Virus record (IMG/VR): IMGVR_UViG_3300029705_000039
Strand: one strand, 5' to 3'
Length of the DNA stretch: 64,000 bases
Origin: a virus
Lineage: Duplodnaviria; Caudoviricetes
A model generated the notes under the pieces. It ran no database searches and was not told where the DNA came from. It worked only from the letters and a program-made list of their open reading frames with translations. Below are positions 11,416 through 26,284 of the stretch, one piece after another; within the stretch, counting starts at the first letter, position 1, and each line of letters starts with the position of its first letter. The translations under genes were made by a program, and so were the position numbers.

Positions 11416-11419
11416 TTTT

Positions 11420-11540: not shown

Positions 11541-11556
11541 TTTTATATAATTAAAT

Positions 11557-11654: not shown

Positions 11655-11718
11655 TAGACACAACCAGCAAGTTATTTGTATTGCTAATAGAGAATTGATA
11701 CGACTAAATTGTGTCTAG
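11655..11718 (+). ncRNA. CAGCAA stem module copy 3
   Basis: TAGACACAA-C-CAGCAA ... TTGTGTCTA-G-TTT. Confidence 0.6.
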
Positions 11719-11775
11719 TTTAAGTAAAAATATAAGCGCCTATATGGCGCTTTCTTTGTATAAGGAGTGATTCCC

Positions 11776-12395: not shown

Positions 12396-13772
12396 ATGGA
12401 ACATCTTTATAAAAATCTTTCTACTGTAGTTTTTTATACTTGCGGCACCTGTAATCTTAAATGCCGTTATTGTGGTATTAATAAAAATCCAATATTAAAA
12501 GATATAGATAGTGCTCTTGCCAAAAGTTTTGAAGGAGATTATTACTTTCGACGAGTAAAAGATTATTTCCCCCGTAAAGATATGCTACTTAACTTTGAAA
12601 CTTGGGGCGGCGAACCTTTTCTCCATATGGAGCGTTTATATCCAGTTTTAAAAACTCTATTGGATTATTATCCTTACTTACAAAATGGTTATTCTTCTAC
12701 CAATTTTTCTTTTGAAAATTGGAATGAAAAATTTTTTGGTTTAATGGACTGTTTTGGACAATATCCAAATCGCTTATTTAAATATTGTCTACAGCTTTCA
12801 GTAGATGGCCCTGAATATATTAACGATGCTGGCCGCGGAACAGGTGTAACTAAAAAATGCTTGGCTAATTTTAATAAATTAGTAGCGCTTTTAGCGGCGG
12901 GCCGCCTACCTAAAAATGTAGACCTAACCATTACCCTAAAGGGAACTTTAGATAATGACACTATTAAACAACTTTGTCAAAAAGATAAGATTATAGAGTA
13001 TTTTCAATTTTATGAAAATAATTTTATAAATCCTATCAAACAACTAAATTTATCTAATGTTGATATCATTCCCACAATTCCTAATACTGCGGTCCCTTCT
13101 CCTGTTACTAAAGAAGATGGAAAAATCTTTGCTAAACTAGTTAAGCTTTGTCGCGAAATCGAAGAAGAGAATAAGACTTGTAATTATTTTAATTATTATA
13201 ATATAATTACACCTTATTATAGTAATATCTGCCAAAATTGTTTAACCTACAAATATGGTTGGCATACTTGCGGCACAGGAGATAGCGTTATCGGTTTATT
13301 ACCTGATAATATGGTTTCTACCTGCCATGAGGGTTTTACCCAAATTGTAGAAGAATATCAAAAATTAGCGGCACAAGATAAGAATCTTAATTCTACGATT
13401 ACTTTCGATAAATTTAGAGATGAACAAGCGATTAGTTTATGCGTCGATGACGAAGGATTTTATGAACATCACTATAAAATGTCTTTATATCAACACGATG
13501 ATGCCACAGCACGTGTCGCAACTAGTGCTAGTTTAATTGTAGCATTAGCTCTTGCCAAACAAATTGATGAATGCTATATTAATCAGACTAACGCTTTAAA
13601 GGCCGCGATTTTTATTCAAAGTCATACTTCTTATTGTATTAAAGACAACTACAATAAGACTGGTTCTTACACTCTACCGCCCGTAGGTTTATATAAATTA
13701 TTACTTAACGGTGCGATGGAATACATACAAGGAGAAGGAGAACTAAAAGTTAATGATGTTAGAAAAGACTAA
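12396..13772 (+). CDS. radical SAM protein 1 (SPASM/twitch-like)
   Basis: CNLKCRYC, WGGEP, SVDGP, CGTG...TCH. Confidence 0.9.
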   Translation: MEHLYKNLSTVVFYTCGTCNLKCRYCGINKNPILKDIDSALAKSFEGDYYFRRVKDYFPRKDMLLNFETWGGEPFLHMERLYPVLKTLLDYYPYLQNGYSSTNFSFENWNEKFFGLMDCFGQYPNRLFKYCLQLSVDGPEYINDAGRGTGVTKKCLANFNKLVALLAAGRLPKNVDLTITLKGTLDNDTIKQLCQKDKIIEYFQFYENNFINPIKQLNLSNVDIIPTIPNTAVPSPVTKEDGKIFAKLVKLCREIEEENKTCNYFNYYNIITPYYSNICQNCLTYKYGWHTCGTGDSVIGLLPDNMVSTCHEGFTQIVEEYQKLAAQDKNLNSTITFDKFRDEQAISLCVDDEGFYEHHYKMSLYQHDDATARVATSASLIVALALAKQIDECYINQTNALKAAIFIQSHTSYCIKDNYNKTGSYTLPPVGLYKLLLNGAMEYIQGEGELKVNDVRKD

Positions 13773-15165
13773 AAATATATTTCAAAAGGAGCAAGATGCT
13801 CTTTTACAAACTGTCTTGGGGCTAAGATTCTTAGACCCCTGGACAGATAAAGAATATGATGATTTCTCATTGGTAGCAGATGCTAACCTAGAAATCTTTA
13901 TTACTAGCGCTTGTAATCAAAAATGCGAATATTGCTATCTAATTAAACATAAAGATTTATATCCGCAAGAATTTCGAGATAAAAGTTTAATATTAGATAA
14001 TTTAAGAAAATTATATGATTGGATTTATGATAATAATTATCATATCCCTCTTTGTACTTTTTTCTCTGGTGAAATTTGGCATATCAATTTTGGTTTGGAA
14101 GTATTAGATATTACTTTAGAATATTTAAAGAAGGGAATTAATATCGATAGATTTATGATTCCTTCTAATTGTTCTTTTGTCTTAGATGAATCTCAACTAG
14201 AAAAAATTCAAACCTATATTGATCTATTTGATAAATATGGATATCCTCTACAATTTTCTATTTCAGTAGATGGCGCTATTTTAGAATCTGAAACGAGACC
14301 ATTAAATAATGGAATTGCCAAAACAGAAGATTATTATGATAGATTATTTCTATTTGCTAAACATAATAATTATTATTTTCATCCAATGGTCAGCGCCTTT
14401 AGCGTGGAAAAGTGGATAGAAAATTACAAATGGTGGGAAAAACAATTTAACAAATGGGATATGAATATTTCAGCCTTAATGATGTTAGAGGTTAGAAATG
14501 ATGATTGGACAGAAGAAAAAATCACCGCTTATACATCCTTTCTTAATTTTTTAATTGATAAATATTTTGAAGAAGAATGTGGAAAAAATGTAGAAGTGTT
14601 TTCTAATCGTCTAATGAATATTCGCAATTATATTCCACAAAAAATTCATCCTGCCGAATTAGCCGGTTATACTCCTTGGGCATTACCAGAAACTGACAGT
14701 TTTATTGGTTGTACCTGCGCTAATGAACTAACTGTACGGCTTGGCGATTTGGCAATTATACCTTGCCATAGATTGGGATATAATAAATATAAATATGGCA
14801 ACTTTACATTAAAAAATAATCATATTGACACAATTGAAGCAAATAATCCTCAAATGGCAGTTAAAATCTTAATGAGCAACTTTAATCTTGCTAGTTTTGG
14901 TTGCGATACTTGTTTATTTAATCATTATTGCCTTAAAGGGTGCTATGGTAGCCAATATGAAAATATGGGCGATCCATTTATTCCTGTTCCGAATATTTGT
15001 AACTTCTTTAAAAAGAAATATAGTTTTCTTTTACAAAAGTATAAGGATATGGGAGTATTTGATTATTACAAAACTATTGCACCGCAGGAATTAGAATATC
15101 CGCGTATTAAGAAATTATTAGACCTTTTTGAAGAGTGGGAGGTTTCGCCGCTATGCAATGGATAA
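13753..15165 (+). CDS. radical SAM/SPASM protein 2
   Basis: CNQKCEYC, SISVDG, GC...PCHR...CDTC...C..GC...C. Confidence 0.9.
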   Translation: MMLEKTKNIFQKEQDALLQTVLGLRFLDPWTDKEYDDFSLVADANLEIFITSACNQKCEYCYLIKHKDLYPQEFRDKSLILDNLRKLYDWIYDNNYHIPLCTFFSGEIWHINFGLEVLDITLEYLKKGINIDRFMIPSNCSFVLDESQLEKIQTYIDLFDKYGYPLQFSISVDGAILESETRPLNNGIAKTEDYYDRLFLFAKHNNYYFHPMVSAFSVEKWIENYKWWEKQFNKWDMNISALMMLEVRNDDWTEEKITAYTSFLNFLIDKYFEEECGKNVEVFSNRLMNIRNYIPQKIHPAELAGYTPWALPETDSFIGCTCANELTVRLGDLAIIPCHRLGYNKYKYGNFTLKNNHIDTIEANNPQMAVKILMSNFNLASFGCDTCLFNHYCLKGCYGSQYENMGDPFIPVPNICNFFKKKYSFLLQKYKDMGVFDYYKTIAPQELEYPRIKKLLDLFEEWEVSPLCNG

Positions 15166-15497
15166 ACGGTATGAAAATGTTCCCTTATGGGCGAACTCCA
15201 GTACAAAATATTACTCTAGAACAATTAGAGAATGATAATATAGAAGAAATTAATATGTATCTCTTGAAAATGGCGCGCCAAATGATTATTTATTAGGAAT
15301 TAGTTAGTTGGAAAGCTGATGGAACTCGCTCTAATAAGTATGCTTACAATATTTTCCCTGATGATTTGCCTGATAATGTATCTTGTTTAAGTGCTTATGG
15401 TCAAAAGATGGTTAATGATTGGTATTCTAGAAATAAATACCATGGCGATAAAGGAGTAAAGCAGACAGATGTTGGATTTAATTATACCGGTATATAA
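15153..15497 (+). CDS. hypothetical protein (1 TAG=Gln)
   Basis: GGAGG RBS; 114-aa frame filling the gap between rSAM2 and GT2. Confidence 0.6.
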
Positions 15498-16479
15498 TAA
15501 TTTGGAAGGGTTGTATAGAACTTTGTTATCTATTGGTGCGGAAACTAAGCAAAAAGTTTACGTGACTATTGTAGATGATGCCTCAGATATTAACTATGAT
15601 GAAGTGATTCCGCTATTCCAAAAACTTTTCCCTATTCGTATTCTAAAATTAAGTGAAAATATGGGTCCTGGTGTGGCAAGACAGCAAGGCATACGAGAGA
15701 CTAATAACCCATATTTTTCTTTTATTGATTGCGGCGATACATTTTATTCTCCTTTAATATTGCCTACGATGTTAGAAGCAATAGAAAAGCATCCTCAAGC
15801 AATGATGTTTTCTTGGGCTCATATAGAAGAGAATAGCGATGGAAGTTTGGATATGGTTAATTCTTATCATAATCGCATTCATGGTAAAATTTATAATAGG
15901 GAGTTTATAAATAAACATAATATTACTTTTTCTCAATTATCCCCGTATGCAAACGAAGACATCGGCTTTAATCTTGCGTGTCGTATGATATTAAAATCTT
16001 TATATCCTGAAACAGCATTGTATTCTAATGAAGATGCGGCAGTTGTATGGAAATGGAGCGGTCCTTCTATTGTTCGTGCGAATGACTGTGAATTCTATTA
16101 TAGAAAACAACATTTAGGATTGGCTTTGAACAGTTTACACGCGATTAATATAGCAAAAGAAAATAATGTATTAGAGCGTATAATTATAGAAGAAATATAT
16201 ACAACAATGATATATTTATATATGTTCTATTTACAAACTTTATATGTAAGGCCGCAATTTAAAGATGAGGCTTATATGGGTTGCAAATATTATTATTCAA
16301 AAATTTTTAGAGAATATGGGATAAAAAACCCATCTTTATTTAGAGATTATTACTATAAAGTGCTACTTTCTTTCCTCTCCGATGAAGATGACCCAATGCT
16401 ACAATCTCTTGTAAGTTTTGATGTTCTTAAATTCTTACAAGAATTGGAGGAAAATACGCATGAGGGACTTAAAAATTAA
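15469..16479 (+). CDS. glycosyltransferase family 2
   Basis: IIPVYN, VDDAS, GPGVARQ.G, FIDCGD, NED. Confidence 0.9.
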   Translation: MLDLIIPVYNNLEGLYRTLLSIGAETKQKVYVTIVDDASDINYDEVIPLFQKLFPIRILKLSENMGPGVARQQGIRETNNPYFSFIDCGDTFYSPLILPTMLEAIEKHPQAMMFSWAHIEENSDGSLDMVNSYHNRIHGKIYNREFINKHNITFSQLSPYANEDIGFNLACRMILKSLYPETALYSNEDAAVVWKWSGPSIVRANDCEFYYRKQHLGLALNSLHAINIAKENNVLERIIIEEIYTTMIYLYMFYLQTLYVRPQFKDEAYMGCKYYYSKIFREYGIKNPSLFRDYYYKVLLSFLSDEDDPMLQSLVSFDVLKFLQELEENTHEGLKN

Positions 16480-17221
16480 ATAGGGCTTTGTAACCTTATT
16501 ATCTTCTGAAAATTATATAGAAGCGGTTTTAATTCTGAATGCCAGCCTAAAAGCAGTGCAATCTAAATATCCCTTAATAGTTGCCTGTACTCCTTCTGTA
16601 ATAAAAAATGAACGCATTATTGCGGCTCTGCTAGCAGAAAATTGTATAGTAGAGCCAATAGCACCATTACGTTTTCCAGAAGGTTTAGAACATCTTCTAC
16701 AAAAAGATTATCCTAATTTGCCAAATCTTTTAAATACCGGCGCGAAATTAGAAGTATTTTCTTTGAAACATTATGATAAACTCGTCTTTATCGACGCAGA
16801 TGGATTTTTGGTAAAAAATATAGATTTTTTATTTAATAAAAAAGATGGCTCTTCTACTATTCAAAAAGACGAGCGCGATGAAATTAGTAGTAATTGTAGT
16901 GTTTTTGTTTTTTGCCCTCGTAATCATAATATAAATTTTTATCGAGGCCTAGTATTTAAAATGGGGCACAATGATGGCGCAGTTTTTGAAAGTATGTGGT
17001 TTTAGGTTAAAGACAATGAAGATTATAGAATAAAAGATAATATCTATTATCTTCCTTTTGATGAAAATATACATACTGAAGTCTATGGTTATCATTTATG
17101 GAAACCGCATTTAAAATATTGGTTATTAAAAGATATGCCTAATACAGATTTAGCTAATTTGTATAAAAACTTTTTAATACCAATTAGAGCCAAATATAAA
17201 TTTGACTTTTCTCAAAAATAA
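16460..17221 (+). CDS. glycosyltransferase family 8 (2 TAG=Gln)
   Basis: FVTLLSSENY..., KLEVF.L..YDKLVFIDAD, H...KYW; 253 aa with read-through. Confidence 0.8.
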
Positions 17222-17259
17222 CTTTATAATATATGTAAGATGAAAGAAAGGAGTATTGT

Positions 17260-17511
17260 ATGAATAATCATATTCGTGCCCATATCCAATTAACTACCTT
17301 AGCCGATATTAACAATTTCGTAAATGAACTTAATAAAGATAATTTCACTAATTGTTATACTCTTGAAAATTTCGATGGCTCTCTACGTGTCAATGCACGC
17401 TCAATTCACGGTATAATTTATGCCGCGAGCGATTATAATGATGAAATGTTTTTAGTTAATGAAAGTAATGATGGTGCTTTCCCGTCAAGCATTGATAAAT
17501 ACAGAGTTTAA
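17260..17511 (+). CDS. HPr-fold (PTS phosphocarrier-like) protein
   Basis: FVNEL...VNARSIHGII resembles HPr VNAKSIMG; own sigmaA promoter. Confidence 0.55.
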   Translation: MNNHIRAHIQLTTLADINNFVNELNKDNFTNCYTLENFDGSLRVNARSIHGIIYAASDYNDEMFLVNESNDGAFPSSIDKYRV

Positions 17512-17514
17512 AAT

Positions 17515-17543
17515 TTGACAATTTTAAAAAAATAGTATATAAT
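17515..17543 (+). promoter_or_regulatory. sigmaA promoter driving the tRNA/ncRNA array
   Basis: TTGACA-17-TATAAT. Confidence 0.8.
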
Positions 17544-17581
17544 ATTTATACAAGGTTGAGGGAGATAACTCCCTCAAATAT

Positions 17582-17657
17582 GGGTATATAGTCCAGTTGG
17601 TAGAACGGTAGACTGTTAATCTATATGTCGGGGGTTCGAGTCCCTCTATACCCGCCA
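17582..17657 (+). tRNA. tRNA-Asn(GTT)
   Basis: cloverleaf, loop CTGTTAA. Confidence 0.9.
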
Positions 17658-17916
17658 CTTGTATCATCTAATGATACTAACCCTTAACACGGATTTTGAG
17701 AGTTTAAACTACCACCGGCCAGAACGACAAATGACGGATATGTGGCTAGCGGAAAAGGGTATATAAAGAAGCGAAGCAAAACTCTCAGCTGTACAGCGGG
17801 CTTGGCCCTTACCGATACAAGGCTCCTAATGCGGCTAAGTATGGGAAGAAGCGGACATTAGCGTTATGAGTGATGTGAAAATCACCATCATCCCGGGACG
17901 AGACGCCGGATCATTT

Positions 17917-17992
17917 GCCTGAGTCGAATAAAGGTAAGTTCGCGGGCCTTTCAAGCCCGTAATGTCGGGTTCGAGTCCCACCTCAGGTGCCA
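17917..17992 (+). tRNA. tRNA-Glu(TTC)
   Basis: loop CTTTCAA, GCCA. Confidence 0.85.
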
Positions 17993-17998
17993 ATTTTA

Positions 17999-18064
17999 AG
18001 GCGGCCACAGCAATTTTTCAAGCATCTGTTATTGTAGAACTGATATAACTTGAAAGCCGCCTAG
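17999..18064 (+). ncRNA. CAGCAA stem module copy 4
   Basis: AGGCGGC-CA-CAGCAA ... GCCGCCT-AG-TTTT. Confidence 0.6.
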
Positions 18065-18071
18065 TTTTTAT

Positions 18072-18147
18072 GCCGAATTAGCTCAATTGGCAGAGCAATC
18101 GCCTTGTAAGCGATAGGTTAAGAGTTCAAGTCTCTTATTCGGCTCCA
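18072..18147 (+). tRNA. tRNA-Thr(TGT)
   Basis: cloverleaf, loop CTTGTAA. Confidence 0.9.
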
Positions 18148-18263
18148 TCGTGCGTTGGAACGTAGCGATACGGTTTAGGCGAACCACCCATAAAATCGCT
18201 CACGCAGAAAGGGGTACAAGATGATTCCAACCGTCGAAAGAGACCGTTAGCCTTTCAACTTTT

Positions 18264-18379
18264 TAGGCACATACAGCAAAACAGTAGTCCAATTGGGCCG
18301 GTAGCTCAGATGGTAAGAGCATTAGATTGATAATCTGAAGGTCGTTGGTTCGAGTCCAACCTGTTAAATATGTGTCTAG
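18264..18379 (+). ncRNA. CAGCAA module copy 5 enclosing a tRNA-Ile(GAT)-like body
   Basis: TAGGCACATA-CAGCAA ... TATGTGTCTAG; D, anticodon and T arms inside; no CCA. Confidence 0.7.
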
Positions 18380-18520
18380 CAAAACATAACACTTGAGGTT
18401 ATGTTGAGTAATGAAATAATTCCCCGTCCCAAGCCGCGGTGAATTATGGAACTCTAAGGGGGTTTTAGTGTAGAACCACAACTTGGGTAGGCTTAAATGC
18501 CGAAGGAAAAACACTTTTAT

Positions 18521-18639
18521 GGAAACGTGGTGTAACGGTAGCACTTAAACAAGTCGGTATAGGCCGCGGACCGGTCAGCAATCTTTCTTTAGACGATTCT
18601 GCAAAAATTGAGGAGTTGGTTCGAATCCAACCGTTTCCA
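18521..18639 (+). ncRNA. tRNA-like RNA (GCA loop) with CAGCAA insertion between D and anticodon arms
   Basis: GGAAACG/CGTTTCC acceptor, D and T arms, CGATT-CTGCAAA-AATTG; about 48-nt insert. Confidence 0.7.
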
Positions 18640-18658
18640 AATTAGCGGCATTCATTGT

Positions 18659-18733
18659 GTGGGTATCGTCCAGCGGATAGGGCATGGAGCTTCTACCTCC
18701 ATAACGTGGGTTCGATTCCTACTACCCATACCA
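18659..18733 (+). tRNA. tRNA-Arg(TCT)
   Basis: loop CTTCTAC. Confidence 0.85.
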
Positions 18734-18738
18734 TTCAT

Positions 18739-18814
18739 AGCAGAGTAGAGAAGAGGTCATCTCGCCATGTTCATAACTTGGAGATCGTAGGTTCGAATCC
18801 TACCCCTGCTCCCA
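18739..18814 (+). tRNA. tRNA-Met/Ile2(CAT)
   Basis: loop TTCATAA. Confidence 0.8.
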
Positions 18815-18818
18815 TTAT

Positions 18819-18894
18819 GCTTCCTTTGCCAAGATGGTAAGGCGGCGGATTGCAAATCCGTGATTCATTGGTTCGACTCCAATAGGAAGCTCCA
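18819..18894 (+). tRNA. tRNA-Cys(GCA)
   Basis: loop TTGCAAA, U73. Confidence 0.9.
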
Positions 18895-18898
18895 TTAT

Positions 18899-18974
18899 CT
18901 CCCGTTAGTCTAACTGGATAAAACATATGGCTACGGACCATAGTATGTGGGTTCAAGTCCTGCACGGGAGGCCA
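18899..18974 (+). tRNA. tRNA-Arg(ACG)
   Basis: loop CTACGGA. Confidence 0.9.
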
Positions 18975-18980
18975 ATATAT

Positions 18981-19056
18981 GCCTAGGAAGCTCATAAGGA
19001 TGAGCAGCGGACTCATATCCCGCAGGTAGTTAGTTCGAATCTAACGCTAGGCACCA
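18981..19056 (+). tRNA. tRNA-Met/Ile2(CAT)
   Basis: loop CTCATAT. Confidence 0.75.
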
Positions 19057-19280
19057 AAGGTTTTATGGAGTTCCTTAATAACCATATGACTTATTGCTTC
19101 AATAGGTAAGCAACGTTTTAGAGAAGGTATCATACAACTCCCCACTGAGTTCCGTGAAAACTCGAAGGTGCCGATGTATGCGTTGGGCTAACCCACATGT
19201 AAGTCTGTGGTTAGGGGATAGTCACCAAAAGACATGTAGGAATCAGCTGATGCCTGCGCTAGCAAAGAAGAAAGCTTTTT

Positions 19281-19372
19281 GGAGAGATACCCAAGTTGGT
19301 GAAGGGGCGAGTTTGCTAAACTTGTAGGTCAGCTTGCCTGGCGCGTGGGTTCGAGTCCCACTCTTTCCGCCA
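19281..19372 (+). tRNA. tRNA-Ser(GCT)
   Basis: long variable arm, loop TTGCTAA. Confidence 0.9.
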
Positions 19373-19820
19373 AAGGTTATTTCACCTTGTAATAAAAAGG
19401 AACGCAAAAATCACAATTGGGCGAAACGAAGTAGTGACGCTTCTAGCAGAAAGCGAACAAAGGGACTAATCAACCCATTCTGTAGTCGTAAAAGGTGCGG
19501 CCACACCTATTACGCAAATGCGACGGACAAGGCTTTGGCAGGTGAGACTTGTAATAACCAAAAAGGTCAACAGACTGGTGGGACGCGAGTGGTCGCAAAC
19601 TGTAGGGATTAAAAATCGAGCACTAAGCTGTAATAATGGGATACTTCATATGGGTAAAGTTATAGGCAATTCCCATAGCCTGACTTAGAGGTATGGAGTG
19701 CTGACTTTATGAGCGGTTGGGTCAGCAACCTACAGTTATAGTAAGTTGCAATTTACTAATAATTAACTCTTGAGCGGTACAAAGATTAGAGGCGGCCCAG
19801 CCTATACCGTAGGGCGTATA
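19373..19820 (+). ncRNA. candidate large structured ncRNA
   Basis: about 450 nt, GC-elevated, many hairpins, no credible ORF, between tRNAs. Confidence 0.45.
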
Positions 19821-19821
19821 T

Positions 19822-19898
19822 AGTGCCGTAGAGAAGTTGGAGTTCTCGCCAGTCTGTCACACTGGAGATCGCGGGTCCGAGTCCCGTCGGCACTGCCA
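19822..19898 (+). tRNA. tRNA-Asp(GTC)
   Basis: loop CTGTCAC, GCCA. Confidence 0.9.
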
Positions 19899-19901
19899 TA
19901 T

Positions 19902-19977
19902 GATGTATTAGCTCAGAAGGTAGAGCGCTGGTCGTTAAGAGTTGAGGTCATAGGTTCAAGTCCTATATACATCACCA
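19902..19977 (+). tRNA. tRNA-like gene with disrupted anticodon arm (nominal TTA)
   Basis: perfect acceptor, D and T arms, ACCA; anticodon stem mispaired. Confidence 0.6.
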
Positions 19978-20048
19978 ATAGTATACGTCGGTTCAAACCC
20001 GGCACCGTCAATAGCTGGCGGTTAGTTTAAAAGGTAAAAACATACTAT
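19978..20048 (+). ncRNA. circularly permuted tRNA-like RNA
   Basis: ATAGTAT/ATACTAT stem encloses T arm, loop-closed acceptor stem, D arm. Confidence 0.7.
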
Positions 20049-20088
20049 ACCAGTTCTTACTGCGGTATCCTACGGGGCCGCAGATTTT

Positions 20089-20164
20089 GCTCCAATACCT
20101 CAGTTGGTAGAGGGCGCGCTTGGTAAGTGCGATGTCGCCAGTCCGATTCTGGCTTGGAGCTCCA
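20089..20164 (+). tRNA. tRNA-Thr(GGT)
   Basis: loop TTGGTAA. Confidence 0.85.
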
Positions 20165-20309
20165 GGGGATTAAGCTAACCCTTCTAAAAACACGCGCTGT
20201 GGTAAATAGAGAAGTGAGACGCAAGGGTATCCGGCATAAGGTATCTCTAAGCCTGACCGGTAGAGTAGCGCCCGGAGAGTTTTTACGCCTGTTCTCTCCA
20301 ACTTAATAT

Positions 20310-20395
20310 GGGTAGATATACCGTAAGTGGTAGCGGGGCAGGCTGTAAACTTGCTGTCAATGACTCGGGTGGTTCGACTCCATCTCTGCCCACCA
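20310..20395 (+). tRNA. tRNA-Tyr(GTA)
   Basis: loop CTGTAAA, long variable arm. Confidence 0.9.
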
Positions 20396-20423
20396 ATTTA
20401 AATAAAAGAAAGGAATTAATTTT

Positions 20424-20645
20424 ATGGAAAAGGAAACTAAGTTTGAAACCTATACTTTTACTCATTCTAATGAAAATGATGTTCTTACTTCCCTGAACTT
20501 CACTGTTCCCCCTGTAGGTGTAACTATTGAAACTTTCCTCTCTATGTGTCGCAAATTTGCCTATGCTCTTGGTTATGCTGAAAAGAGTATTGATGAATGG
20601 TTTGGCGAAGATGGAGACGAATCCTTTACAGAGTTTATGGAATGA
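20424..20645 (+). CDS. hypothetical protein
   Basis: AAGGA RBS. Confidence 0.6.
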   Translation: MEKETKFETYTFTHSNENDVLTSLNFTVPPVGVTIETFLSMCRKFAYALGYAEKSIDEWFGEDGDESFTEFME

Positions 20646-20697
20646 CCGCGGCAAAGGAATATATATTCATTTTTATCATAATGGAGAGTGAATAAAT

Positions 20698-21252
20698 ATG
20701 TATTCGCAAGCATTGTCCGCGGGATGTATGTTAGGCTTTGCCGCTCTTCTTTCTTGCTGTGTTGAGAATCAAATTTTAGCGGCGTTATTCTTTTCAATAG
20801 GACTTTTGTATATACGAATAAGTAAATTTTATCTATATACAGGCCAAATTCAAAATCTAAAAGACCATTCTACTTCTTTAAAAGAATTAGGAATTGGCTT
20901 ATTTGGCAATATTAGCGGCGTTACGCTTTTCTTCTCTTTATTTTTCTTCCTTGATTTTCACGCGGCCGCAGATAAATATTTTGCTATTACTGCTGTAAAA
21001 TGGTCTTATCCTTGGTATCATTATATTGCTTCTAGTATGTGTTGCGGTATTTTGATGACAATTGCAACAAAAAAAGAAAGTCCTTTATGGTTAAGTAGTT
21101 TATGTGTAATGGCTTTTATTCTTGCTGGTTTTAATCATTGTGTTGCTGATTGGTTCTATGTTTTCGGAAGCATGAGCCCGTTAAAATATTTCTATTGGTC
21201 TTTAACTGTTATTGGTAATTTTCTTGGTGGTTATTTGGCCGCAACCAAATAA
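20698..21252 (+). CDS. formate/nitrite transporter (FNT) family protein
   Basis: AG..LG, LYTG, GN..G, FILAGFNHCVAD, GNFLGG. Confidence 0.85.
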   Translation: MYSQALSAGCMLGFAALLSCCVENQILAALFFSIGLLYIRISKFYLYTGQIQNLKDHSTSLKELGIGLFGNISGVTLFFSLFFFLDFHAAADKYFAITAVKWSYPWYHYIASSMCCGILMTIATKKESPLWLSSLCVMAFILAGFNHCVADWFYVFGSMSPLKYFYWSLTVIGNFLGGYLAATK

Positions 21253-21261
21253 CCCTTACTT

Positions 21262-21818
21262 CGGGGTGTAGCGCAGTTTGGCTAGCGCATTCGCTTTGGG
21301 AAAAGAGATTTTTGCTGATATAAAATGTTAGATAATACTCAACAAAAAGGAACTATTACTGAATTACACTGTATCTTAGATTTAACTAATTTGGGTTATC
21401 GGTGTTTAAAACCAGTAGATGAAAGTTCTAAATATGATATAGTTGTCGATTTAGGGCAAGGAAAATTTAAACGCATACAATGTAAAACTGCTTCTTGGGC
21501 TAATGATACAAAACAAGAGCATGTTGCGTTTCAAATTAATACTTGCAGTCAAACCACTAATACAAAAACGACTACTCGTCATAAATATTCTAAAGATGAT
21601 ATTGATTATTTTTACACTTGGTTTGAAGGTCAAGGATATTTAGTCTCCATTGAAGAAGCAACGGGAATTGGCTTTAGATGGCGGTATGAATATCCTGAAA
21701 CGAATCAGAAACAGGGAATTCATATCGCTAGTGAATATAAAATTGAGGAGGTTTTAAAGGCAATCTAAGATTTTCCTGGAGCGAAGGGTCGTGAGTTCAA
21801 ATCTCACCTCCCCGACCA
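21262..21818 (+). tRNA. tRNA-Pro(TGG) interrupted by a 479-nt insertion (about 21299-21777)
   Basis: 5' half CGGGGTG...TTCGCTTTG, 3' half GGAGCGAA...CTCCCCGACCA; rejoining gives loop TTTGGGA. Confidence 0.85.
21325..21768 (+). CDS. PD-(D/E)XK endonuclease (PDDEXK_5 / intron-associated type) inside tRNA-Pro
   Basis: KG.ITE...P.....YDIVVD...RIQCKT...Y...DIDYF. Confidence 0.8.
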   Translation: MLDNTQQKGTITELHCILDLTNLGYRCLKPVDESSKYDIVVDLGQGKFKRIQCKTASWANDTKQEHVAFQINTCSQTTNTKTTTRHKYSKDDIDYFYTWFEGQGYLVSIEEATGIGFRWRYEYPETNQKQGIHIASEYKIEEVLKAI

Positions 21819-21949
21819 ATTAAAATTTGACATTTTTCAAATTTTATAATATAATATATACATAAGGTAAGGAACTTAATCAAATGCTCTCACCTCACGC
21901 TACACGCACCTCCTTGGGCTTTGTTCTATTACTTCCTTACCTTTTATGA

Positions 21950-22026
21950 TGCGGAGTGGAGCAGTTGGTAGCTCGTTAGCCCCATAAGCTAAAGGTCGCA
22001 GGTTCGAGTCCTGCCTCTCGCACCCA
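21950..22026 (+). tRNA. initiator-like tRNA-Met(CAT), atypical
   Basis: resembles fMet D and T arms; shortened loop CCATAA and bulged acceptor. Confidence 0.65.
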
Positions 22027-22031
22027 ATAAT

Positions 22032-22205
22032 AATTACAACAAAAAGGTATGCTTAGAAGCAGCAATCCTCTAAGGAGTAGGTCAAGCACCATAAGTGCAA
22101 ATAAAGTAGTGTAATGTCGGGCTGAATCACAGTGGCATATGGCTATGAAGTGCTTGTGGGAAAATGTGAGTAATCTTTTGGCGTAATAGCACATTTGTTG
22201 TAATT
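22032..22205 (+). ncRNA. 23S rRNA L11-binding domain (H43-H44) mimic with about 100-nt insert
   Basis: GCTTAGAAGCAGC and GCGTAATAGC loops in rRNA order, closed by a perfect 12-bp stem. Confidence 0.8.
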
Positions 22206-22710
22206 GCCTATCTACTAGCGTAGAAAAGGTTCCTGGATACGTCTAGGCGTATCCTATATGGAAAGGTTAAGGTCGCTACTTGACCTTTCCACTCACCGAC
22301 TTGCGGACGTAATCCGCTAAGGAAGAAACCGACTTTAGAAGATAAGTAGACGCGCAGGATGGCCACCATGGAGAGTGCGAGGTTCAAGTCCTCGGCGGTT
22401 AAATATACTTTATCTTTGGTTAGTCCTCAGCCAGGCGTTTGCGGAAACGTCGTGACAAACATAGATTATGGCAAAATGGCAAAAGGAATCCGCATTCTTA
22501 GTAGCCTATGGTGGGAAGAGGATGCCCCACTTTAGACGGAAATAGCTACCCGTCGGAGCCGCGTGTGCAGGATTCGCGGCGAATAAAATAAATAAATCGC
22601 TGTATGCGGCGAAGGCCGTTGAAGCACCTGTTAGCTAAAGGTGGTCTTTCGAAAGTCTATCGTAGAATAAATTTCTACGCGGTGCGGAGATAGCCGTATA
22701 AACTCCTTTT
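22206..22710 (+). ncRNA. candidate structured ncRNA(s), including degenerate tRNA-like unit about 22327-22400
   Basis: many hairpins, T-arm GAGGTTCAAGTCCTC, no ORF. Confidence 0.4.
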
Positions 22711-22714
22711 ATAT

Positions 22715-22788
22715 GGGGTCATGATGTAATGGTAACATAATTGCCCTGCAAGCAATTTTTCGGGATTCGAATTCCCGTGGCTCCACCA
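22715..22788 (+). tRNA. tRNA-Ala(TGC)
   Basis: G3-U70, loop CCTGCAA. Confidence 0.85.
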
Positions 22789-22818
22789 TTTAAAATTAAT
22801 GAAAGGAAGTACAATAAT

Positions 22819-22947
22819 ATGACCAATGAAACCAAGGTTGCTCTTCTCACCGCTCGAAAGAATCTTCTTAATGACCGCAATCCCGCGGAAAATATTCATA
22901 TTATTCATAAAATTGAAAGGCTGATTAGAAAATATTCTAAGGAGTGA
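22819..22947 (+). CDS. small hypothetical protein (42 aa)
   Basis: AAGGA RBS, MTNETKVALL... Confidence 0.5.
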   Translation: MTNETKVALLTARKNLLNDRNPAENIHIIHKIERLIRKYSKE

Positions 22948-23135
22948 TTTCAATGGAAAAATTATGGAAATGGTTAAGAGCGCATTTTTGTATTCACGAT
23001 TATGTACATCAAGAAACTCATACCATTCGTAATTTTAAAACTCAACCTCCCTATTTTCTGGCAACCTATAAATGCTCTAAGTGCGGCAAAGTAATTAGCA
23101 AATATATTGGTTAAGCGGCTTTGCCGCCGTTTTAT

Positions 23136-23291
23136 AGCCGAGTAGCCAAGTGGAAAGGCACGGGACTTCGTAAAGTAGTGTAATTGGTAGCAATGTTTCC
23201 GGTTAGCGCGCAGGGGACGGTGTTGGTTCGAATCCAACCTTTACGGCCATGACTCCCGCATTCGCTGGTTCGAGCCCAGCCTCGGCTGCCA
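23136..23291 (+). tRNA. tRNA-Gln(TTG) split in its anticodon by a nested tRNA-like RNA
   Basis: CGGGA-CTT|insert|TGAC-TCCCG; acceptor AGCCGAG/CTCGGCT, GCCA. Confidence 0.85.
23169..23249 (+). ncRNA. nested tRNA-like RNA (81 nt) ending in GCCA
   Basis: CGTAAAG/CTTTACG acceptor, D loop TGGTA, T arm GTTGG-TTCGAAT-CCAAC, 12-nt non-canonical anticodon loop. Confidence 0.85.
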
Positions 23292-23542
23292 AAGGGATAA
23301 CAATGCCCTTGTATGAAAACTTTCTTGCCCCAGTTTGTATAGATGCGGGATAATTCCTTCGTCTTAGTTTTGGACAAGAATCGTGCAAACCTTATAGAAC
23401 TGTAGGTTTATATGGAGGTCCGCGGCTTCCTAATTTAGAACAGTTCTTTTAGATTTGGTGCTTACCAAACTAAACCTATCGAGGACGTGTGAGGCGGGAA
23501 TGTTTGAGCCTGATTAAGTTCAGGGTGTAGATAGGTTTTTAT

Positions 23543-23618
23543 GCGAGGTTAGCTCAGTTGGGAGAGCACCTGCCCTACAAGCAGGGTGTCGGCGGTTCGA
23601 GCCCGTCACTTCGCACCA
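23543..23618 (+). tRNA. tRNA-Val(TAC)
   Basis: loop CCTACAA. Confidence 0.9.
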
Positions 23619-23622
23619 TTAT

Positions 23623-23707
23623 GGGGAGTTGGTGGAATTGGCAGACACGCTAGACTCAGGATCTAGTGCCGCAAAGCATAAGGGTTCAAGTCCCTTACTC
23701 CCTACCA
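23623..23707 (+). tRNA. tRNA-Leu(CAG)
   Basis: loop CTCAGGA. Confidence 0.9.
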
Positions 23708-23713
23708 TTTTAA

Positions 23714-23791
23714 CGGGCATTAGTTCAGTAGGTTTAGAACGCAGTCCTGATAAGACTGAGGTCCCTGGTTCAAATCCATCATCCCCTGCCA
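23714..23791 (+). tRNA. tRNA-Ile(GAT), with mismatched acceptor and T stems
   Basis: loop CTGATAA; possibly degenerate. Confidence 0.6.
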
Positions 23792-23795
23792 ACTT

Positions 23796-23869
23796 GCCGG
23801 CGTAGCTTAATGGCAAAGCTCCTGCCTTCCAAGCAGGCTACGTGGGTTCGATTCCCATCGCTGGCTCCA
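23796..23869 (+). tRNA. tRNA-Gly(TCC)
   Basis: loop CTTCCAA. Confidence 0.9.
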
Positions 23870-23870
23870 T

Positions 23871-23944
23871 GCAGGTATAGTATAGTGGTAATACCCCTCC
23901 TTGCCAAGGAGGTATCGCGGATTCGAATTCCGCTACTTGCTCCA
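23871..23944 (+). tRNA. tRNA-Gly(GCC)
   Basis: loop TTGCCAA. Confidence 0.9.
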
Positions 23945-24031
23945 TTTTGTGAAATTCAAGCCTGTCGACCCTACTGGGCGGACCGTAACAGCCGGTTTAA
24001 TTTTTTAATTTAATACTTAAGGAGTGATTCT

Positions 24032-24331
24032 ATGTACGAGAATGGACGAAAAGTTTCCCGTTATCACCGTATGCGCGAGCACAAACGCCGCCTAAAGGAC
24101 CGCTTCTTAAAGAACTCCTGGCGGCACAAGGGATTATCCTATGAAGAATATTTAGCAAATCTTACTGAAGAAGAACTAAATTATCGTTCAGGCGGGAATA
24201 TGATGCCTTGTTGCCTCCAATACTGGACACATTATTATGGCGGGGAACAGGAGAAAATTGCTAAACGGCAAACCTCTCGTGCTATTCGCAATTACTGGCG
24301 AAAGGAACTTAATAATTGGGAAGAACTTTAA
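24032..24331 (+). CDS. basic hypothetical protein
   Basis: AAGGAG RBS. Confidence 0.65.
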   Translation: MYENGRKVSRYHRMREHKRRLKDRFLKNSWRHKGLSYEEYLANLTEEELNYRSGGNMMPCCLQYWTHYYGGEQEKIAKRQTSRAIRNYWRKELNNWEEL

Positions 24332-24421
24332 TGCTAGTATAAATATTAAAAATATGTTGTTTGGTAAAATTTTAGCGGATAGAGGAATCTATCCGCTTAT
24401 TTTTATAGGTAGGTGAAAAAG

Positions 24422-26284
24422 ATGGTTCCATATTCATAGAATATTTATGGGTATCCCTATAGTGTTATTTTAAAAGGCAGCGACATTCAAGCCCAATCAG
24501 GTCAACTTTTAAATAATTCTGAATCTGGGATACTAGAAAATTATAATATAAGTAGATTTCAAAGAATAATTGATGGCGTGATTTCTAAGCTATAGCGAAT
24601 TATTAATAATTAGCGAAATATTTATGAAGAAATTTAGGGAATGAAAAATGGCAAGGGAGCATAGCTACTTAATGATATTTTACATAATAGAAATATTACT
24701 GTAGATGAAAATGGCAATATTAAAGGAATTGCACAAACTTATGAAGAAATGTTTACTGAAGATATAAAAAAGAGAAAAGCGACATTAAAAGAGATGAATG
24801 ATTATAAAGTTCAATATAATCAAGTTATAGAATATATAAATACAGCCTTAAAAAAAGTCAATGTAAACAACTTAAATCCATCTACTTTATAGGACGTTAT
24901 TTCTAAAATAAAAATTAACAATGATAAACAAAGAGGTATCCAAAAATAGATGCTAACCTTATTTGAAGATGAAAATAATGCGAATAGTTTTAGTAAATTA
25001 TTCATGAAATCCGGAACATTATCTAATGATAATCTACGCAAACAATATGCTACATTAATTAAAGATTATAATAACGTTCGTGAGGATTATAAGCGTATTG
25101 CAAAGGATGAGTTGCCGCAAAAAATAGGAAAAGACCTAAATACAAATTTGCAAAAGTTATCTAAAGATTTAGCAGAAGTCTATGACGTAGAATCTGATGA
25201 ATTACGAGAAGCCCTAATAGATTATTTACAGGCGAATATTGATTCATCAGCTGAATTATCAAGTCCCTAGAATTTTACTTTTACAGTTCCAAGAAAAGCA
25301 AAAGGTTTCGAGGCCGTTGAATATACAGCCTCCTTAAGTGTTCCTATTTTAACGCATAATGATTTAGAAAATATTGTTATTTCTGCTATACAAACTGGTG
25401 CTGTTACTGACCGTGTATCTTCGCAAATAAGATGCGAGGTTAAATTTAAAGATCAAGAAGCTTTAACTCGAATTTCAAGAGAAAGATATGATCAAATAAT
25501 TCAAGGTACTTTAAAATTAGAGAAAGAAATTGATTATTTGGCCCTTGATACAGTAACTACTCATGTATCTAATAAAATAGACGATATTATTACTATAATG
25601 AATGAAGACCCTAAAAATGGAAATAAAAAATATAATTTAAAATTTTCAGACAAATTAATCTTTAATGAAACGTATAATGGAGCGGGCGGTCTAGCTAATG
25701 TTAAAATGGAAGGCGGCACTTTATATTCATTAATTAATTTATTACAGGGCGATAATTTAGGTAAGTTAGGCAAAAACCCAAATAATGACAATTTTGAAGA
25801 ATTAATTTTTACCATCCTCAATATGTCTTCTGTATCTAAATTAGCAGGAGATTTAAATAAAATTGAAGTTGATAATTTTATTAAAGCTTTATTAATTTCT
25901 GAAATCTATACTTTAGCATTTAATCCAGAAAGTTTTATTGTAGATTTAGAAACATTAGATGAACGTAATTTATATTTCCATCATATAGATACAATGATTC
26001 TACCTTCTTATAACTTATTACAAAAAACAATAAATTAGTTAGAAGAAATTAAAGAAACCTTACTGACTTCAGAAGGAGCGTAGAATAATTATATAAAAGC
26101 ATCAATTACTCCTAGCACTTCTTATACGGCCTCGTAGTTATATACTCAATATGTTAAGACTCCTAATTTTTAGAACGATCCAGCAGGACAATGGAAAATT
26201 GTGGCAGATTTAATTGCTTCCGACACCGCTATTTCTGTAATGTTGGATATACCAGCTATTTTAGGTTCAGTCGCGGGAAAATAA
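24422..26284 (+). CDS. 620-aa hypothetical protein (12 TAG=Gln), possibly virion-associated
   Basis: single frame with only TAG interruptions, joining ORFs 24950-25270 and 25538-26038. Confidence 0.75.

What the first reader, a model, noticed from the sequence alone, without database searches (positions are those of the whole stretch)
17580..23945. The tRNA array as a whole looks like a translation-apparatus mimic and repair system
Seen: about 20 normal tRNAs interleaved with split, nested, permuted and anticodon-less tRNA-like RNAs, an rRNA-domain mimic and several 100-500 nt structured spacers, mostly under two sigmaA promoters. Inference: a co-transcribed RNA arsenal supplying tRNAs plus decoys against anticodon nucleases and ribosome-targeting or stringent-response defences, needing an RNA ligase not seen in this window.
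Basis: inference. Interest (0 to 1): 0.8.

Follow-up and report, generated by a model that had tools for sequence, protein, structure and literature searches.

The report
Phage tRNA operon packed with tRNA-like RNAs
The main tRNA gene cluster of a large gut phage carries 20 ordinary tRNAs. It also carries conserved tRNA-shaped and stem-clamped small RNAs, a tRNA nested inside another tRNA, and a tRNA split by a mobile nuclease gene; these probably work with the phage's own Ro60-like protein and RNA-repair enzymes, not as decoys.

Summary
Window 17580-23945 has 20 canonical tRNA genes and two perfect sigma70-type promoter matches. It also holds:
- a drum RNA;
- tRNA-Pro(UGG) split by a PD-(D/E)XK homing-endonuclease gene, with no ribozyme;
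- tRNA-Gln(UUG) split between positions 34 and 35 by a tRNA-shaped, CCA-ended insert;
- a 71-nt permuted tRNA mimic, and tRNA-like RNAs lacking an anticodon or acceptor arm;
- two loops identical to the 23S rRNA L11-binding site.

These elements are not decaying pseudogenes. In related phages most spacer RNAs are 80-97% identical, against 62-75% for neighbouring coding DNA, and several helices keep pairing through compensatory changes.

A repeated module (8-bp clamp stem, ACAGCAA, YUUUUCAAG) is built like a Y RNA. It occurs only in viral records that encode a DUF2828 protein, whose model matches Ro60. That gene lies about 15 kb upstream of the window, alongside RNA ligase, RlaP-like, Thg1-like, kinase and phosphoesterase genes.

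Best reading: tRNA supply, plus Ro60/Y-RNA-type RNA repair or quality control, plus mobile inserts. The decoy idea has no direct support. Expression could not be tested.

tRNA-shaped introns were noted once before (Lak phages, 2019). This scan has also found them on other DNA.

The parts
17515..17543 (+). Promoter-like site P1 (TTGACA-17-TATAAT, 12/12), followed by a leader hairpin
   Evidence: one of ten perfect matches in the window, all on the + strand
17582..17657 (+). tRNA-Asn(GTT)
17658..17916 (+). Spacer RNA. The first half (about 17680-17790) is conserved in four lineages
   Evidence: 84-94% identity; MFE z -0.3
17917..17992 (+). tRNA-Glu(TTC)
17996..18066 (+). Stand-alone clamp-ACAGCAA-UUUUUCAAG hairpin RNA
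18072..18147 (+). tRNA-Thr(TGT)
18148..18263 (+). Highly conserved spacer RNA of unknown class
   Evidence: 93-95% identity in three lineages; MFE z +0.6
18264..18379 (+). Clamp-ACAGCAA RNA holding a tRNA body (D, anticodon GAT and T arms) without an acceptor stem
   Evidence: Rfam tRNA positions 5-66; alignment with compensatory changes, and anticodon GAC in L009; z -3.5
18406..18519 (+). drum RNA (RF02958)
   Evidence: 75.8 bits against a gathering score of 43; also found in L007 and L009
18520..18640 (+). tRNA-like RNA with open acceptor, D and T arms. The anticodon region is replaced by a hairpin plus CAGCAA. It has no CCA
   Evidence: 92-97% identity in three lineages; the L009 copy scores 41 bits as tRNA; same topology in IMG/VR locus L075
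18659..19056 (+). Five tRNAs: Arg(TCT), Met, Cys, Arg(ACG), Met
19057..19280 (+). Spacer RNA of unknown class
   Evidence: 71-90% identity in relatives
19281..19372 (+). tRNA-Ser(GCT)
19373..19821 (+). 449-nt spacer of unknown class, conserved
   Evidence: 84-89% identity in four lineages
19822..19898 (+). tRNA-Asp(GTC)
19902..19977 (+). CCA-ended tRNA-like RNA without a pairable anticodon stem (ARAGORN 'Leu-TAA'). Seen in this lineage only
   Evidence: read from sequence
19978..20048 (+). 71-nt permuted tRNA mimic: closing stem, T arm, acceptor-like hairpin, D arm
   Evidence: four pairs with compensatory changes; 67 nt are 100% identical in L011
20089..20164 (+). tRNA-Thr(GGT)
20310..20395 (+). 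tRNA-Tyr(GTA)
   Evidence: Rfam 25.5 bits
20424..21252 (+). Two protein genes inside the array: a 73-aa ORF and a 184-aa formate/nitrite-transporter-like protein
21262..21818 (+). tRNA-Pro(TGG) interrupted in the anticodon loop by a 477-479-nt insert
   Evidence: same insert at the same site in L011; intact tRNA-Pro in L005, L007, L009 and L013
21325..21768 (+). PD-(D/E)XK homing endonuclease gene (I-Ssp6803I-like), 147 aa
   Evidence: Pfam PF11645 7e-22; PDB 2OST 8e-6
21827..21855 (+). Promoter-like site P2 (12/12); a leader hairpin follows at 21860-21949
   Evidence: (z -4.7)
21950..22026 (+). tRNA-Met(CAT)
22032..22205 (+). Stem-closed RNA carrying the two loops of the 23S rRNA GTPase-associated centre, separated by an extra hairpin of about 115 nt
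22300..22425 (+). Conserved RNA with a long closing stem and a T-arm motif (22378)
   Evidence: z -3.2 for 22211-22420
22715..22788 (+). tRNA-Ala(TGC)
23136..23291 (+). tRNA-Gln(TTG), outer gene, split between positions 34 and 35
   Evidence: uninterrupted in L005, L007, L011 and L014
23169..23249 (+). Inner tRNA-shaped insert, running from its acceptor +1 to its CCA, with no usable anticodon
   Evidence: compensatory changes against L009
23292..23455 (+). Conserved structured RNA downstream of tRNA-Gln
   Evidence: five lineages; z -2.4 for 23292-23542
23543..23944 (+). Five tRNAs: Val(TAC), Leu(CAG), Ile(GAT), Gly(TCC), Gly(GCC)

Best explanation
This is the main tRNA operon region of a large phage that probably reads TAG as a sense codon. 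It has three layers.

1. About 20 working tRNAs are supplied to the infected cell.
2. Between them lie conserved small RNAs. Their 5' and 3' ends would be set by the same enzymes that cut out the neighbouring tRNAs (RNase P and 3'-end processing). Several of these RNAs share a clamp stem followed by ACAGCAA-YUUUUCAAG. They carry either a simple hairpin or a tRNA-like domain, which is the design of bacterial Y RNAs (YrlA). They most likely bind the phage's Ro60-like DUF2828/vWA protein. Together with the phage RNA ligase, RlaP-like nucleotidyltransferase, Thg1-like enzyme, kinase and phosphoesterases, this would form an RNA repair or quality-control system for tRNAs during infection.
3. Mobile inserts have colonised the tRNA genes. 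One is a tRNA-shaped insert in tRNA-Gln. It would be cut out by RNase P at its +1 and by an endonuclease after its CCA, leaving 3'-OH and 5'-phosphate halves for the phage ligase to seal. The other is a homing-endonuclease gene in tRNA-Pro, whose removal route is unknown.

Shown here: the anatomy, the conservation, the compensatory changes, the Ro60-like fold, and the co-occurrence of RNA module and protein gene.
Inferred: transcription, processing, protein binding, ligation and biological role.
For: Anatomy.

Conservation: spacer RNAs are 80-97% identical in relatives whose coding DNA is 62-75% identical.

Compensatory changes:
- Clamp stem: 5 of 8 pairs in 14 copies (stem variants).
- Mini permuted mimic: 4 pairs.
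- Inner acceptor, inner T stem and outer T stem of nested tRNA-Gln, window against L009.

Y-RNA likeness:
- The order T arm, acceptor-like stem-loop, D arm is the YrlA layout (paper PMC4201824).
- The element at 11436-11545 gives a weak full-length YrlA match (22 bits, E 0.07).

Ro60-like protein: the best 13 PDB matches of the model are all Ro60/TROVE proteins, including a Thermus phage Ro60.

Co-occurrence: DUF2828 is present in 8 of 8 records holding a true clamp module (7 IMG/VR records plus the window's own contig) and in 0 of 6 large IMG/VR records with only chance motif hits.

Repair genes on the same contig, overlapping the window at 100% identity:
- RNA ligase: PHROG 1e-67, TIGR02306 2e-11.
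- Thg1: 8e-32.
- Kinase and phosphoesterase.
- RlaP-like nucleotidyltransferase.

Nested tRNAs recur in the relatives, with hosts Gln, Val, Thr, Asn and Ile. Each insert runs from +1 to CCA and its distribution is patchy. All 26 tRNA-shaped units encode CCA. Jumbo phages are known to carry RNA ligase, RlaP, Thg1 and TROVE proteins (PMC7824862).
Against:
- The clamp module fails two defining YrlA features. It lacks the GNCGAA motif, and its Rfam score is far below gathering. No YrlA match was found in 17000-24500 at E<=1.
- The Ro60-like gene is 30-40 kb from the RNAs, not adjacent as in bacteria.
- The co-occurrence may reflect shared descent of one phage clade, and the sample is small.
- The Ro60-like fold comes from a moderate model (pLDDT 76; TM 0.35-0.57).
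- A precise cut after CCA is not the usual activity of bacterial RNase Z.
- Several spacers show no thermodynamic structure signal.
- The element at 19902-19977 and the spacer at 20165-20309 are not conserved and may be decay products.
Confidence: 0.5

Rival explanations
1. The atypical RNAs are decoys that soak up host anticodon nucleases, ribosome-targeting toxins or stringent-response factors, while the normal tRNAs replace cleaved host tRNAs.
For: - tRNA-shaped RNAs without usable anticodons are conserved.
- An element carries both 23S L11-site loops. L009 has the same pair at the same relative place, with different closing pairs.
- The phage carries an RNA-repair set typical of conflicts with tRNA nucleases (PMC7824862).
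Against: - No test bears on decoy action.
- Several mimics lack the anticodon loop that anticodon nucleases recognise.
- The array has no tRNA-Lys, a classic nuclease target.
- The rRNA-like element is absent by BLAST from four of five comparable relatives.
- The two loops are separated by about 115 nt, against about 15 nt in rRNA.
Confidence: 0.15
2. The odd elements are by-products of selfish DNA and gene decay: homing endonucleases, insert-carrying alleles spread by recombination, and duplicated tRNAs losing function. They have no role for the phage. The interrupted tRNA-Pro and tRNA-Gln are dead genes.
For: - Endonuclease genes differ between relatives at the array: PD-(D/E)XK, HNH and GIY-YIG.
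- One sample variant carries an extra tRNA and a GIY-YIG gene after window 22667.
- Inserts are present or absent among close relatives.
- The tRNA-Pro insert has no ribozyme and no room for one.
- 19902-19977 is lineage-specific.
Against: - Spacer RNAs are better conserved than coding DNA.
- Compensatory changes keep the helices of the clamp, the mimics, and both inner and outer nested tRNAs.
- Two different tRNA-Pro bodies carrying the same insert both keep a full cloverleaf.
- The interrupted genes are the only tRNA-Pro and tRNA-Gln in the window.
Confidence: 0.2
3. The spacers are only cis-acting processing or regulatory signals of the tRNA operon, such as nuclease entry sites, transcript stabilisers or attenuators. 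They are not trans-acting RNAs.
For: - Clamp hairpins sit directly after a CCA and end in a U-run.
- Each promoter is followed by a stable leader hairpin.
Against: - Cis signals would not need tRNA-like domains with T, D and acceptor mimicry, or a 16-nt conserved motif.
- The module is tied to a Ro60-like gene across records.
- drum RNA is held to act with a protein partner (PMC5737381).
Confidence: 0.12

Closest known systems
Bacterial and phage Y RNAs (YrlA) with Ro60/Rsr (Chen et al. 2014, PMC4201824)
   Same: - The 5' and 3' ends pair into a stem.
- The cargo includes a tRNA-like domain in the order T arm, acceptor-like stem-loop, D arm.
- There are several paralogues per genome.
- A Ro60-fold protein is encoded in the same genome.
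- RNA-repair genes are present.
   Different: - The conserved motif is ACAGCAA-YUUUUCAAG, not GNCGAA(N)G.
- The Rfam YrlA score is far below threshold.
- The RNAs sit inside tRNA arrays, 30-40 kb from the protein gene.
- The protein belongs to DUF2828/DUF7788, not Pfam TROVE.
- One version has the opposite topology, with an open acceptor and a closed clamp.
'Enigmatic' tRNA introns of Lak megaphages (Devoto et al. 2019, PMC6784885)
   Same: - A phage tRNA gene is interrupted in the anticodon loop by an insert that itself looks like a tRNA.
- Presence or absence varies between related genomes.
- The Lak case is tRNA-Thr(TGT), which is also a host in relatives L011 and L013.
   Different: - This is a different phage group, with smaller genomes (records of about 110-174 kb).
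- Here the hosts are Gln, Val, Thr, Asn and Ile.
- Boundaries are defined as +1 to CCA.
- Compensatory changes are seen, and an RNA ligase is present in the genome.
Group I intron with I-Ssp6803I in cyanobacterial tRNA-fMet
   Same: A PD-(D/E)XK homing endonuclease of the same family sits in a tRNA anticodon loop.
   Different: - There is no group I ribozyme. Only about 23 and 10 nt flank the ORF.
- The boundaries lack the U/G rule.
- The insert ends pair with the anticodon loop and stem to give a 15-bp helix.
Phage T4 Pnkp/Rnl1 tRNA repair and jumbo-phage RNA repair sets (Iyer et al. 2021, PMC7824862)
   Same: One phage genome holds RNA ligase, kinase, phosphoesterase, RlaP-like, Thg1-like and TROVE-like proteins.
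   Different: - The ligase is of the DRB0094/PHA02142 type, not Rnl1.
- Here the likely clients include the phage's own interrupted tRNAs and tRNA mimics.
23S rRNA GTPase-associated centre (helices 43-44, L11/thiostrepton site)
   Same: The loop sequences UUAGAAGCA and GCGUAAUAGC are identical, in the same order, inside a stem-closed domain.
   Different: - An extra hairpin of about 115 nt lies between the two loops.
- The element is seen in only two phage lineages.
- No binding is shown.

Membership tests
Phage tRNA gene array | Many co-oriented, closely spaced cloverleaf tRNA genes | tested here: met
   20 canonical tRNAs on the + strand; all encode CCA
drum RNA (RF02958) | Covariance-model score above the gathering threshold | tested here: met
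   75.8 bits against 43, full length
YrlA / Y RNA | tRNA-like domain in the order T arm, acceptor-like stem-loop, D arm, closed by a stem formed by the RNA ends | tested here: met
   19978-20048; 11420-11540; L029; layout as described in PMC4201824
YrlA / Y RNA | Rfam YrlA model at or above the gathering score | tested here: not met
   22.1 bits against 69 for 11436-11545; no match at E<=1 in 17000-24500
YrlA / Y RNA | Conserved GNCGAA(N)G motif of the Ro-binding module | tested here: not met
   The copies carry ACAGCAA-YUUUUCAAG instead
YrlA / Y RNA | Encoded with a Ro60 orthologue and bound by it | tested here: inconclusive
   A Ro60-fold protein is in the same genome but about 30-40 kb away. 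Co-occurrence is 8/8 against 0/6. Binding is not testable here
tRNA-shaped intron (Lak-phage type) | The insert lies in the anticodon loop and its exact removal restores a 7-nt loop | tested here: met
   Removing 23169-23249 gives CTTTGAC, the same loop as in uninterrupted orthologues
tRNA-shaped intron (Lak-phage type) | The insert is tRNA-shaped from acceptor +1 to CCA | tested here: met
   also true for 11 further cases in relatives
tRNA-shaped intron (Lak-phage type) | The insert is removed from the RNA and the halves are joined | not testable with these tools
   No RNA data
Group I intron with homing endonuclease | Group I catalytic core | tested here: not met
   No Intron_gpI match at E<=1; 444 of about 479 nt is ORF
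Group I intron with homing endonuclease | Homing endonuclease ORF inside the insert | tested here: met
   PF11645 7e-22; PDB 2OST
23S GTPase-associated-centre mimic | Both the 1067 and 1095 loops in one stem-closed domain | tested here: met
   L009 has both loops 96 nt apart
23S GTPase-associated-centre mimic | Compact three-way junction able to bind L11 | tested here: inconclusive
   A hairpin of about 115 nt separates the loops; binding is not testable
Phage RNA repair system | RNA ligase together with end-healing kinase and phosphoesterase | tested here: met
   On the same contig upstream of the window
Ro60/TROVE protein | TROVE ring plus vWA fold | tested here: met
   The model of close homologue P0076 (79% identical to the window genome's protein P0067 in alignment A2) matches only Ro60/TROVE chains at ranks 1-13. 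There is no Pfam TROVE sequence match

The most novel reading that the evidence does not exclude
This phage group may run a protein-only tRNA splicing route. tRNA-shaped inserts would be cut out of tRNA anticodons by the ordinary tRNA end-processing enzymes, and the halves sealed by a phage RNA ligase. Alongside, a new family of Y-like RNAs would serve a phage Ro60-like protein. These RNAs exist in two circularly permuted topologies and are released from tRNA operons by the same enzymes. One member may copy the ribosomal L11-binding site.
Probability: 0.3. Interest if true: 0.85.

Novelty: new variant of a known kind. Interest (0 to 1): 0.68.

Why it matters
Phage tRNA arrays are usually read as codon-usage helpers or as spares for tRNAs cut by host defences. 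This array is also a dense locus of non-coding RNA genes.

If the clamp RNAs are partners of a phage Ro60-like protein, they give a tractable viral Ro/Y RNA system and a new RNA family absent from Rfam.

If the nested tRNAs are spliced by RNase P, a 3' endonuclease and an RNA ligase, that would be a tRNA splicing route not yet shown in any organism. It would also explain why large phages keep RNA ligases.

The material suits direct testing: relatives with and without each insert are available for comparison.

Tried and rejected
- Near-identity search of the array in GenBank phages found only chance tRNA matches.
- Single-protein scans of IMG/VR with the transporter-like and glycosyltransferase genes found no relatives.
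- No whole genome is held for the window, and ENA/JGI loci cannot be searched as records.
- One contig look-up failed because of the start-codon choice.
- MFE z-scores do not separate spacers from coding controls. A first attempt timed out.
- Group I intron, tmRNA, self-cleaving ribozymes, ROOL and GOLLD: no Rfam match in the array at E<=1.
- An RNase III route for the tRNA-Pro insert was considered and rejected. The possible exon boundaries in the 15-bp helix are staggered by 1, 3, 5 or 7 bp, never the 2 nt that RNase III leaves (reasoned).
- The 16-nt motif scan of IMG/VR gave mostly chance hits, as expected for its length. Only 12 of 118 had a tRNA nearby.
- The first 'control' set for DUF2828 turned out to hold true modules, so it was replaced.
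- Literature searches for nested tRNAs found nothing beyond the Lak phage paper.
- The supplement of the drum RNA paper is not held.

Full report
**What the window is.** The 64-kb window comes from a large double-stranded DNA phage. It encodes a DnaE-type polymerase, gyrase B and A, a DnaB-like helicase, RecJ and NrdD. A tRNA with anticodon CTA lies at 11557-11647, which fits a genome that reads TAG as sense. Ten perfect TTGACA-17-TATAAT matches lie on the + strand and none on the - strand. The same phage occurs at 100% identity in several JGI metagenome contigs. No whole genome is held.

**Checking the observation.**
- ARAGORN finds 21 tRNA-shaped genes between 17582 and 23944. Twenty have normal anticodons.
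- Rfam confirms them. It adds a drum RNA at 18406-18519 (75.8 bits against 43) and a tRNA body without an acceptor stem at 18299-18363.
- With introns allowed, ARAGORN finds tRNA-Pro at 21262-21818 with a 477-nt insert, an outer tRNA at 23136-23291 around the inner element at 23169-23249, and a tRNA-like RNA with an internal insert at 18520-18640.
- The two promoter matches at 17515 and 21827 are perfect.
- T-arm motifs outside canonical tRNAs number eight in the tRNA clusters. The other 50 kb has four on the + strand and none on the - strand.
- All 26 tRNA-shaped units, including the inner, outer and split ones, encode CCA.
- So the listed kinds of element are all present at the stated places.

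Two qualifiers apply.
- MFE z-scores are near zero for four spacers and clearly negative only for five elements. They do not differ from coding controls.
- Co-transcription is unproven, and a terminator-like hairpin lies at 23115.

**Relatives and conservation.** The transporter-like protein inside the array (20698-21252) has a graded series of homologues from 90% to about 50% identity. I fetched the contigs that encode eight of them; seven gave DNA, in six lineages (L005-L015). Their arrays share the layout but differ in detail.

Mapped on the window, coding DNA is 62-75% identical in the more distant lineages. Many spacers are much better kept:

| Element | Identity in relatives |
|---|---|
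| 18148-18263 | 93-95% |
| 18520-18640 | 92-97% |
| 17658-17916 | 84-94% |
| 19373-19821 | 84-89% |
| 23292-23455 | about 85% |
| 19981-20047 | 100% in L011 |

The exceptions are 19902-19977, 20165-20309 and most of 22027-22210, which have no BLAST counterpart.

**The nested tRNA.** Alignment with orthologues shows that the outer gene is tRNA-Gln(UUG).
- L005, L007, L011 and L014 have it uninterrupted, with loop CTTTGAC.
- The window and L009 carry an insert between positions 34 and 35. It runs exactly from the first acceptor base to CCA.
- Between the window and L009 there are compensatory changes in the inner acceptor stem (A-T to G-C), the inner T stem (G-C to A-T) and the outer T stem (C-G to T-A). 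The inner anticodon arm is unrelated.

The arrangement recurs in the relatives:

| Host tRNA | Loci | Insert site |
|---|---|---|
| Val(UAC) | L006, L007, L009 | 34/35 |
| Thr(UGU) | L011, L013 | 34/35 |
| Asn(GUU) | L007, L013 | 35/36 |
| Ile(GAU) | L005, L006, L009 | 35/36 |

Each insert again runs from +1 to CCA. In L011 and L013 the insert and the flanking anticodon stem are nearly identical while the rest of the host tRNA differs. This is the pattern expected when an insert-bearing allele spreads by recombination.

Devoto et al. reported 'enigmatic' introns in Lak phage tRNAs, one of which may itself encode a tRNA (PMC6784885). This scan has also met tRNA-shaped introns on other phage DNA. 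I found no paper that explains them.

**The split tRNA-Pro.**
- The insert holds a 147-aa PD-(D/E)XK endonuclease of the I-Ssp6803I family.
- L011 has the same insert, 80% identical, at the same loop position of a different tRNA-Pro body. Both bodies keep a full cloverleaf.
- L005, L007, L009 and L013 have intact tRNA-Pro(UGG).
- There is no ribozyme: Rfam gives nothing at E<=1, and only about 23 and 10 nt flank the ORF.
- The insert ends pair with the anticodon loop and stem into a continuous 15-bp helix.
- I could not find a splicing route. The gene may be inactive.
- Endonuclease genes at the array differ among relatives (HNH, GIY-YIG, PD-(D/E)XK). One sample variant carries an extra tRNA and a GIY-YIG gene after 22667. 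The array is a hot spot for mobile DNA.

**The clamp RNAs.** A repeated module occurs about twenty times in the window and its relatives, usually directly after a CCA. It consists of:
- a 7-11-bp stem with a conserved base (TAGRC/GYCTA);
- then ACAGCAA and usually YUUUUCAAG;
- then a variable cargo;
- then the 3' strand and a U-run.

In 14 short-cargo copies, five of eight stem pairs show double compensatory changes.

The cargo varies:
- a plain hairpin (17996-18066);
- a tRNA body (18264-18379; L009 keeps the anticodon hairpin through compensatory changes but reads GAC instead of GAT);
- a permuted tRNA domain (11420-11540).

The RNA at 18520-18640 has the reverse topology: an open acceptor stem, with the hairpin-CAGCAA part in place of the anticodon arm. 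The 71-nt element at 19978-20048 has a closing stem, T arm, acceptor-like hairpin and D arm, with four covarying pairs.

This order of arms is that of YrlA, the tRNA-like Y RNA bound by bacterial Ro60 (PMC4201824). Membership of the YrlA family itself fails. The best Rfam score is 22 bits against 69, and the GNCGAA motif is absent.

**The protein side.** Walking upstream along contigs that overlap the window at 100% identity gives, from about 15.7 kb to 0.4 kb before window position 1:
- a DUF2828/DUF7788 protein;
- YqeY;
- a 491-aa RNA ligase (PHROG 1e-67; TIGR02306 2e-11);
- an RlaP-like nucleotidyltransferase (20.5 bits against a cut-off of 23; PHROG 1e-21);
- a Thg1-like enzyme (8e-32);
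- a metallophosphoesterase;
- a polynucleotide-kinase-like P-loop protein with an adjacent phosphoesterase.

A model of a close DUF2828 homologue (79% identical in alignment A2; pLDDT 76) matches only Ro60/TROVE structures at ranks 1-13. These include Ro60 of Thermus phage phiLo and D. radiodurans Rsr. A CCA-ended tRNA mimic with a 13-nt loop lies right after this gene. Such repair sets, including TROVE proteins with a tRNA-like partner, are known in jumbo phages (PMC7824862).

The ORF at 31742-32878 looks like a DNA ligase. The predicted ligase does exist elsewhere in the genome.

**Linking RNA and protein.** A scan of IMG/VR for the 16-nt motif gave mostly chance hits, but seven records hold true modules next to tRNAs (L029, L085, L095, L028, L040 and L092). 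The seventh, L075, has the open-acceptor form and no tRNA gene within 1.5 kb.
- All seven encode DUF2828, as does the window's genome.
- None of six large records with only chance hits does.
- Fisher's test on 8/8 against 0/6 gives about 3e-4 by my own arithmetic, and about 1e-3 if the three related records count once. Relatedness of the phages is not controlled for.

**The rRNA-like element.** 22051-22063 equals E. coli 23S 1063-1075, and 22181-22190 equals 1092-1101. They lie in the right order inside a 12-bp closing stem, but with a hairpin of about 115 nt between them. L009 has both loops 96 nt apart at the same relative position, with different closing pairs. By my estimate two such co-occurrences are unlikely by chance (of the order of 1e-3). 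Even so, the element is missing from the other relatives, and nothing shows that it binds L11.

**Verdict.**
- The array supplies tRNAs.
- It carries conserved tRNA-like RNAs tied to an RNA-repair gene set.
- The evidence points to a Ro60/Y-RNA-type system plus mobile inserts, not to decoys, which remain untested.
- Transcription, processing, binding and ligation are all inferred.

Noticed in passing
window 10862-11647: A first, smaller tRNA cluster holds Ser(CGA), Leu(CAA) and a CTA-anticodon suppressor tRNA, behind another perfect promoter at 11267. Clamp RNAs lie at 10795-10855 and 11655-11718, and a YrlA-like permuted tRNA at 11420-11540. The suppressor suggests that TAG is read as sense.
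   Followed up: partly
L004:3124-4015 (diverges from the window after 22667): A variant of the same phage from another sample carries an extra tRNA and a GIY-YIG endonuclease gene just upstream of tRNA-Ala. This is a strain-level polymorphism of the array.
   Followed up: partly
window 55261-56532: The NrdD-like ORF matches only the first 268 of 562 profile positions. The gene may be split by an insert or by a recoded stop.
   Followed up: no
L009:10758-11894: The 1.1-kb spacer between tRNA-Met and tRNA-Ala in this relative holds two copies of a large repeated module (for example GGGAGTAAATTGACCCCA twice) and a skipping-rope RNA at 11677-11752. Its class is unknown.
   Followed up: no
L009:353-700 (- strand): A relative has a group I intron match (60 bits against 50) about 9 kb from its array. 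These phages therefore do carry classical introns elsewhere.
   Followed up: no
L018:1787-1970: A stand-alone CCA-ended tRNA mimic with a 13-nt loop in place of the anticodon loop lies directly downstream of the Ro60-like gene, after a structured leader.
   Followed up: partly
L016:3099-3953: A 285-aa protein gives a borderline match to the U32 family (22.5 bits against 22.4). From my own knowledge, this family includes RNA hydroxylation enzymes. It sits among the RNA-repair genes.
   Followed up: no
window 12396-16479: Two radical-SAM-like proteins and a family-2 glycosyltransferase lie between the two tRNA clusters. Relatives L007, L009 and L011 instead have lysis-type genes (SpoIID, SH3) upstream of their arrays.
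   Followed up: no
window 22820-23114: Two small ORFs (42 and 53 aa) just upstream of tRNA-Gln are kept in L005, L006, L007 and L009; L014 keeps only the first of the two. Their function is unknown.
   Followed up: no
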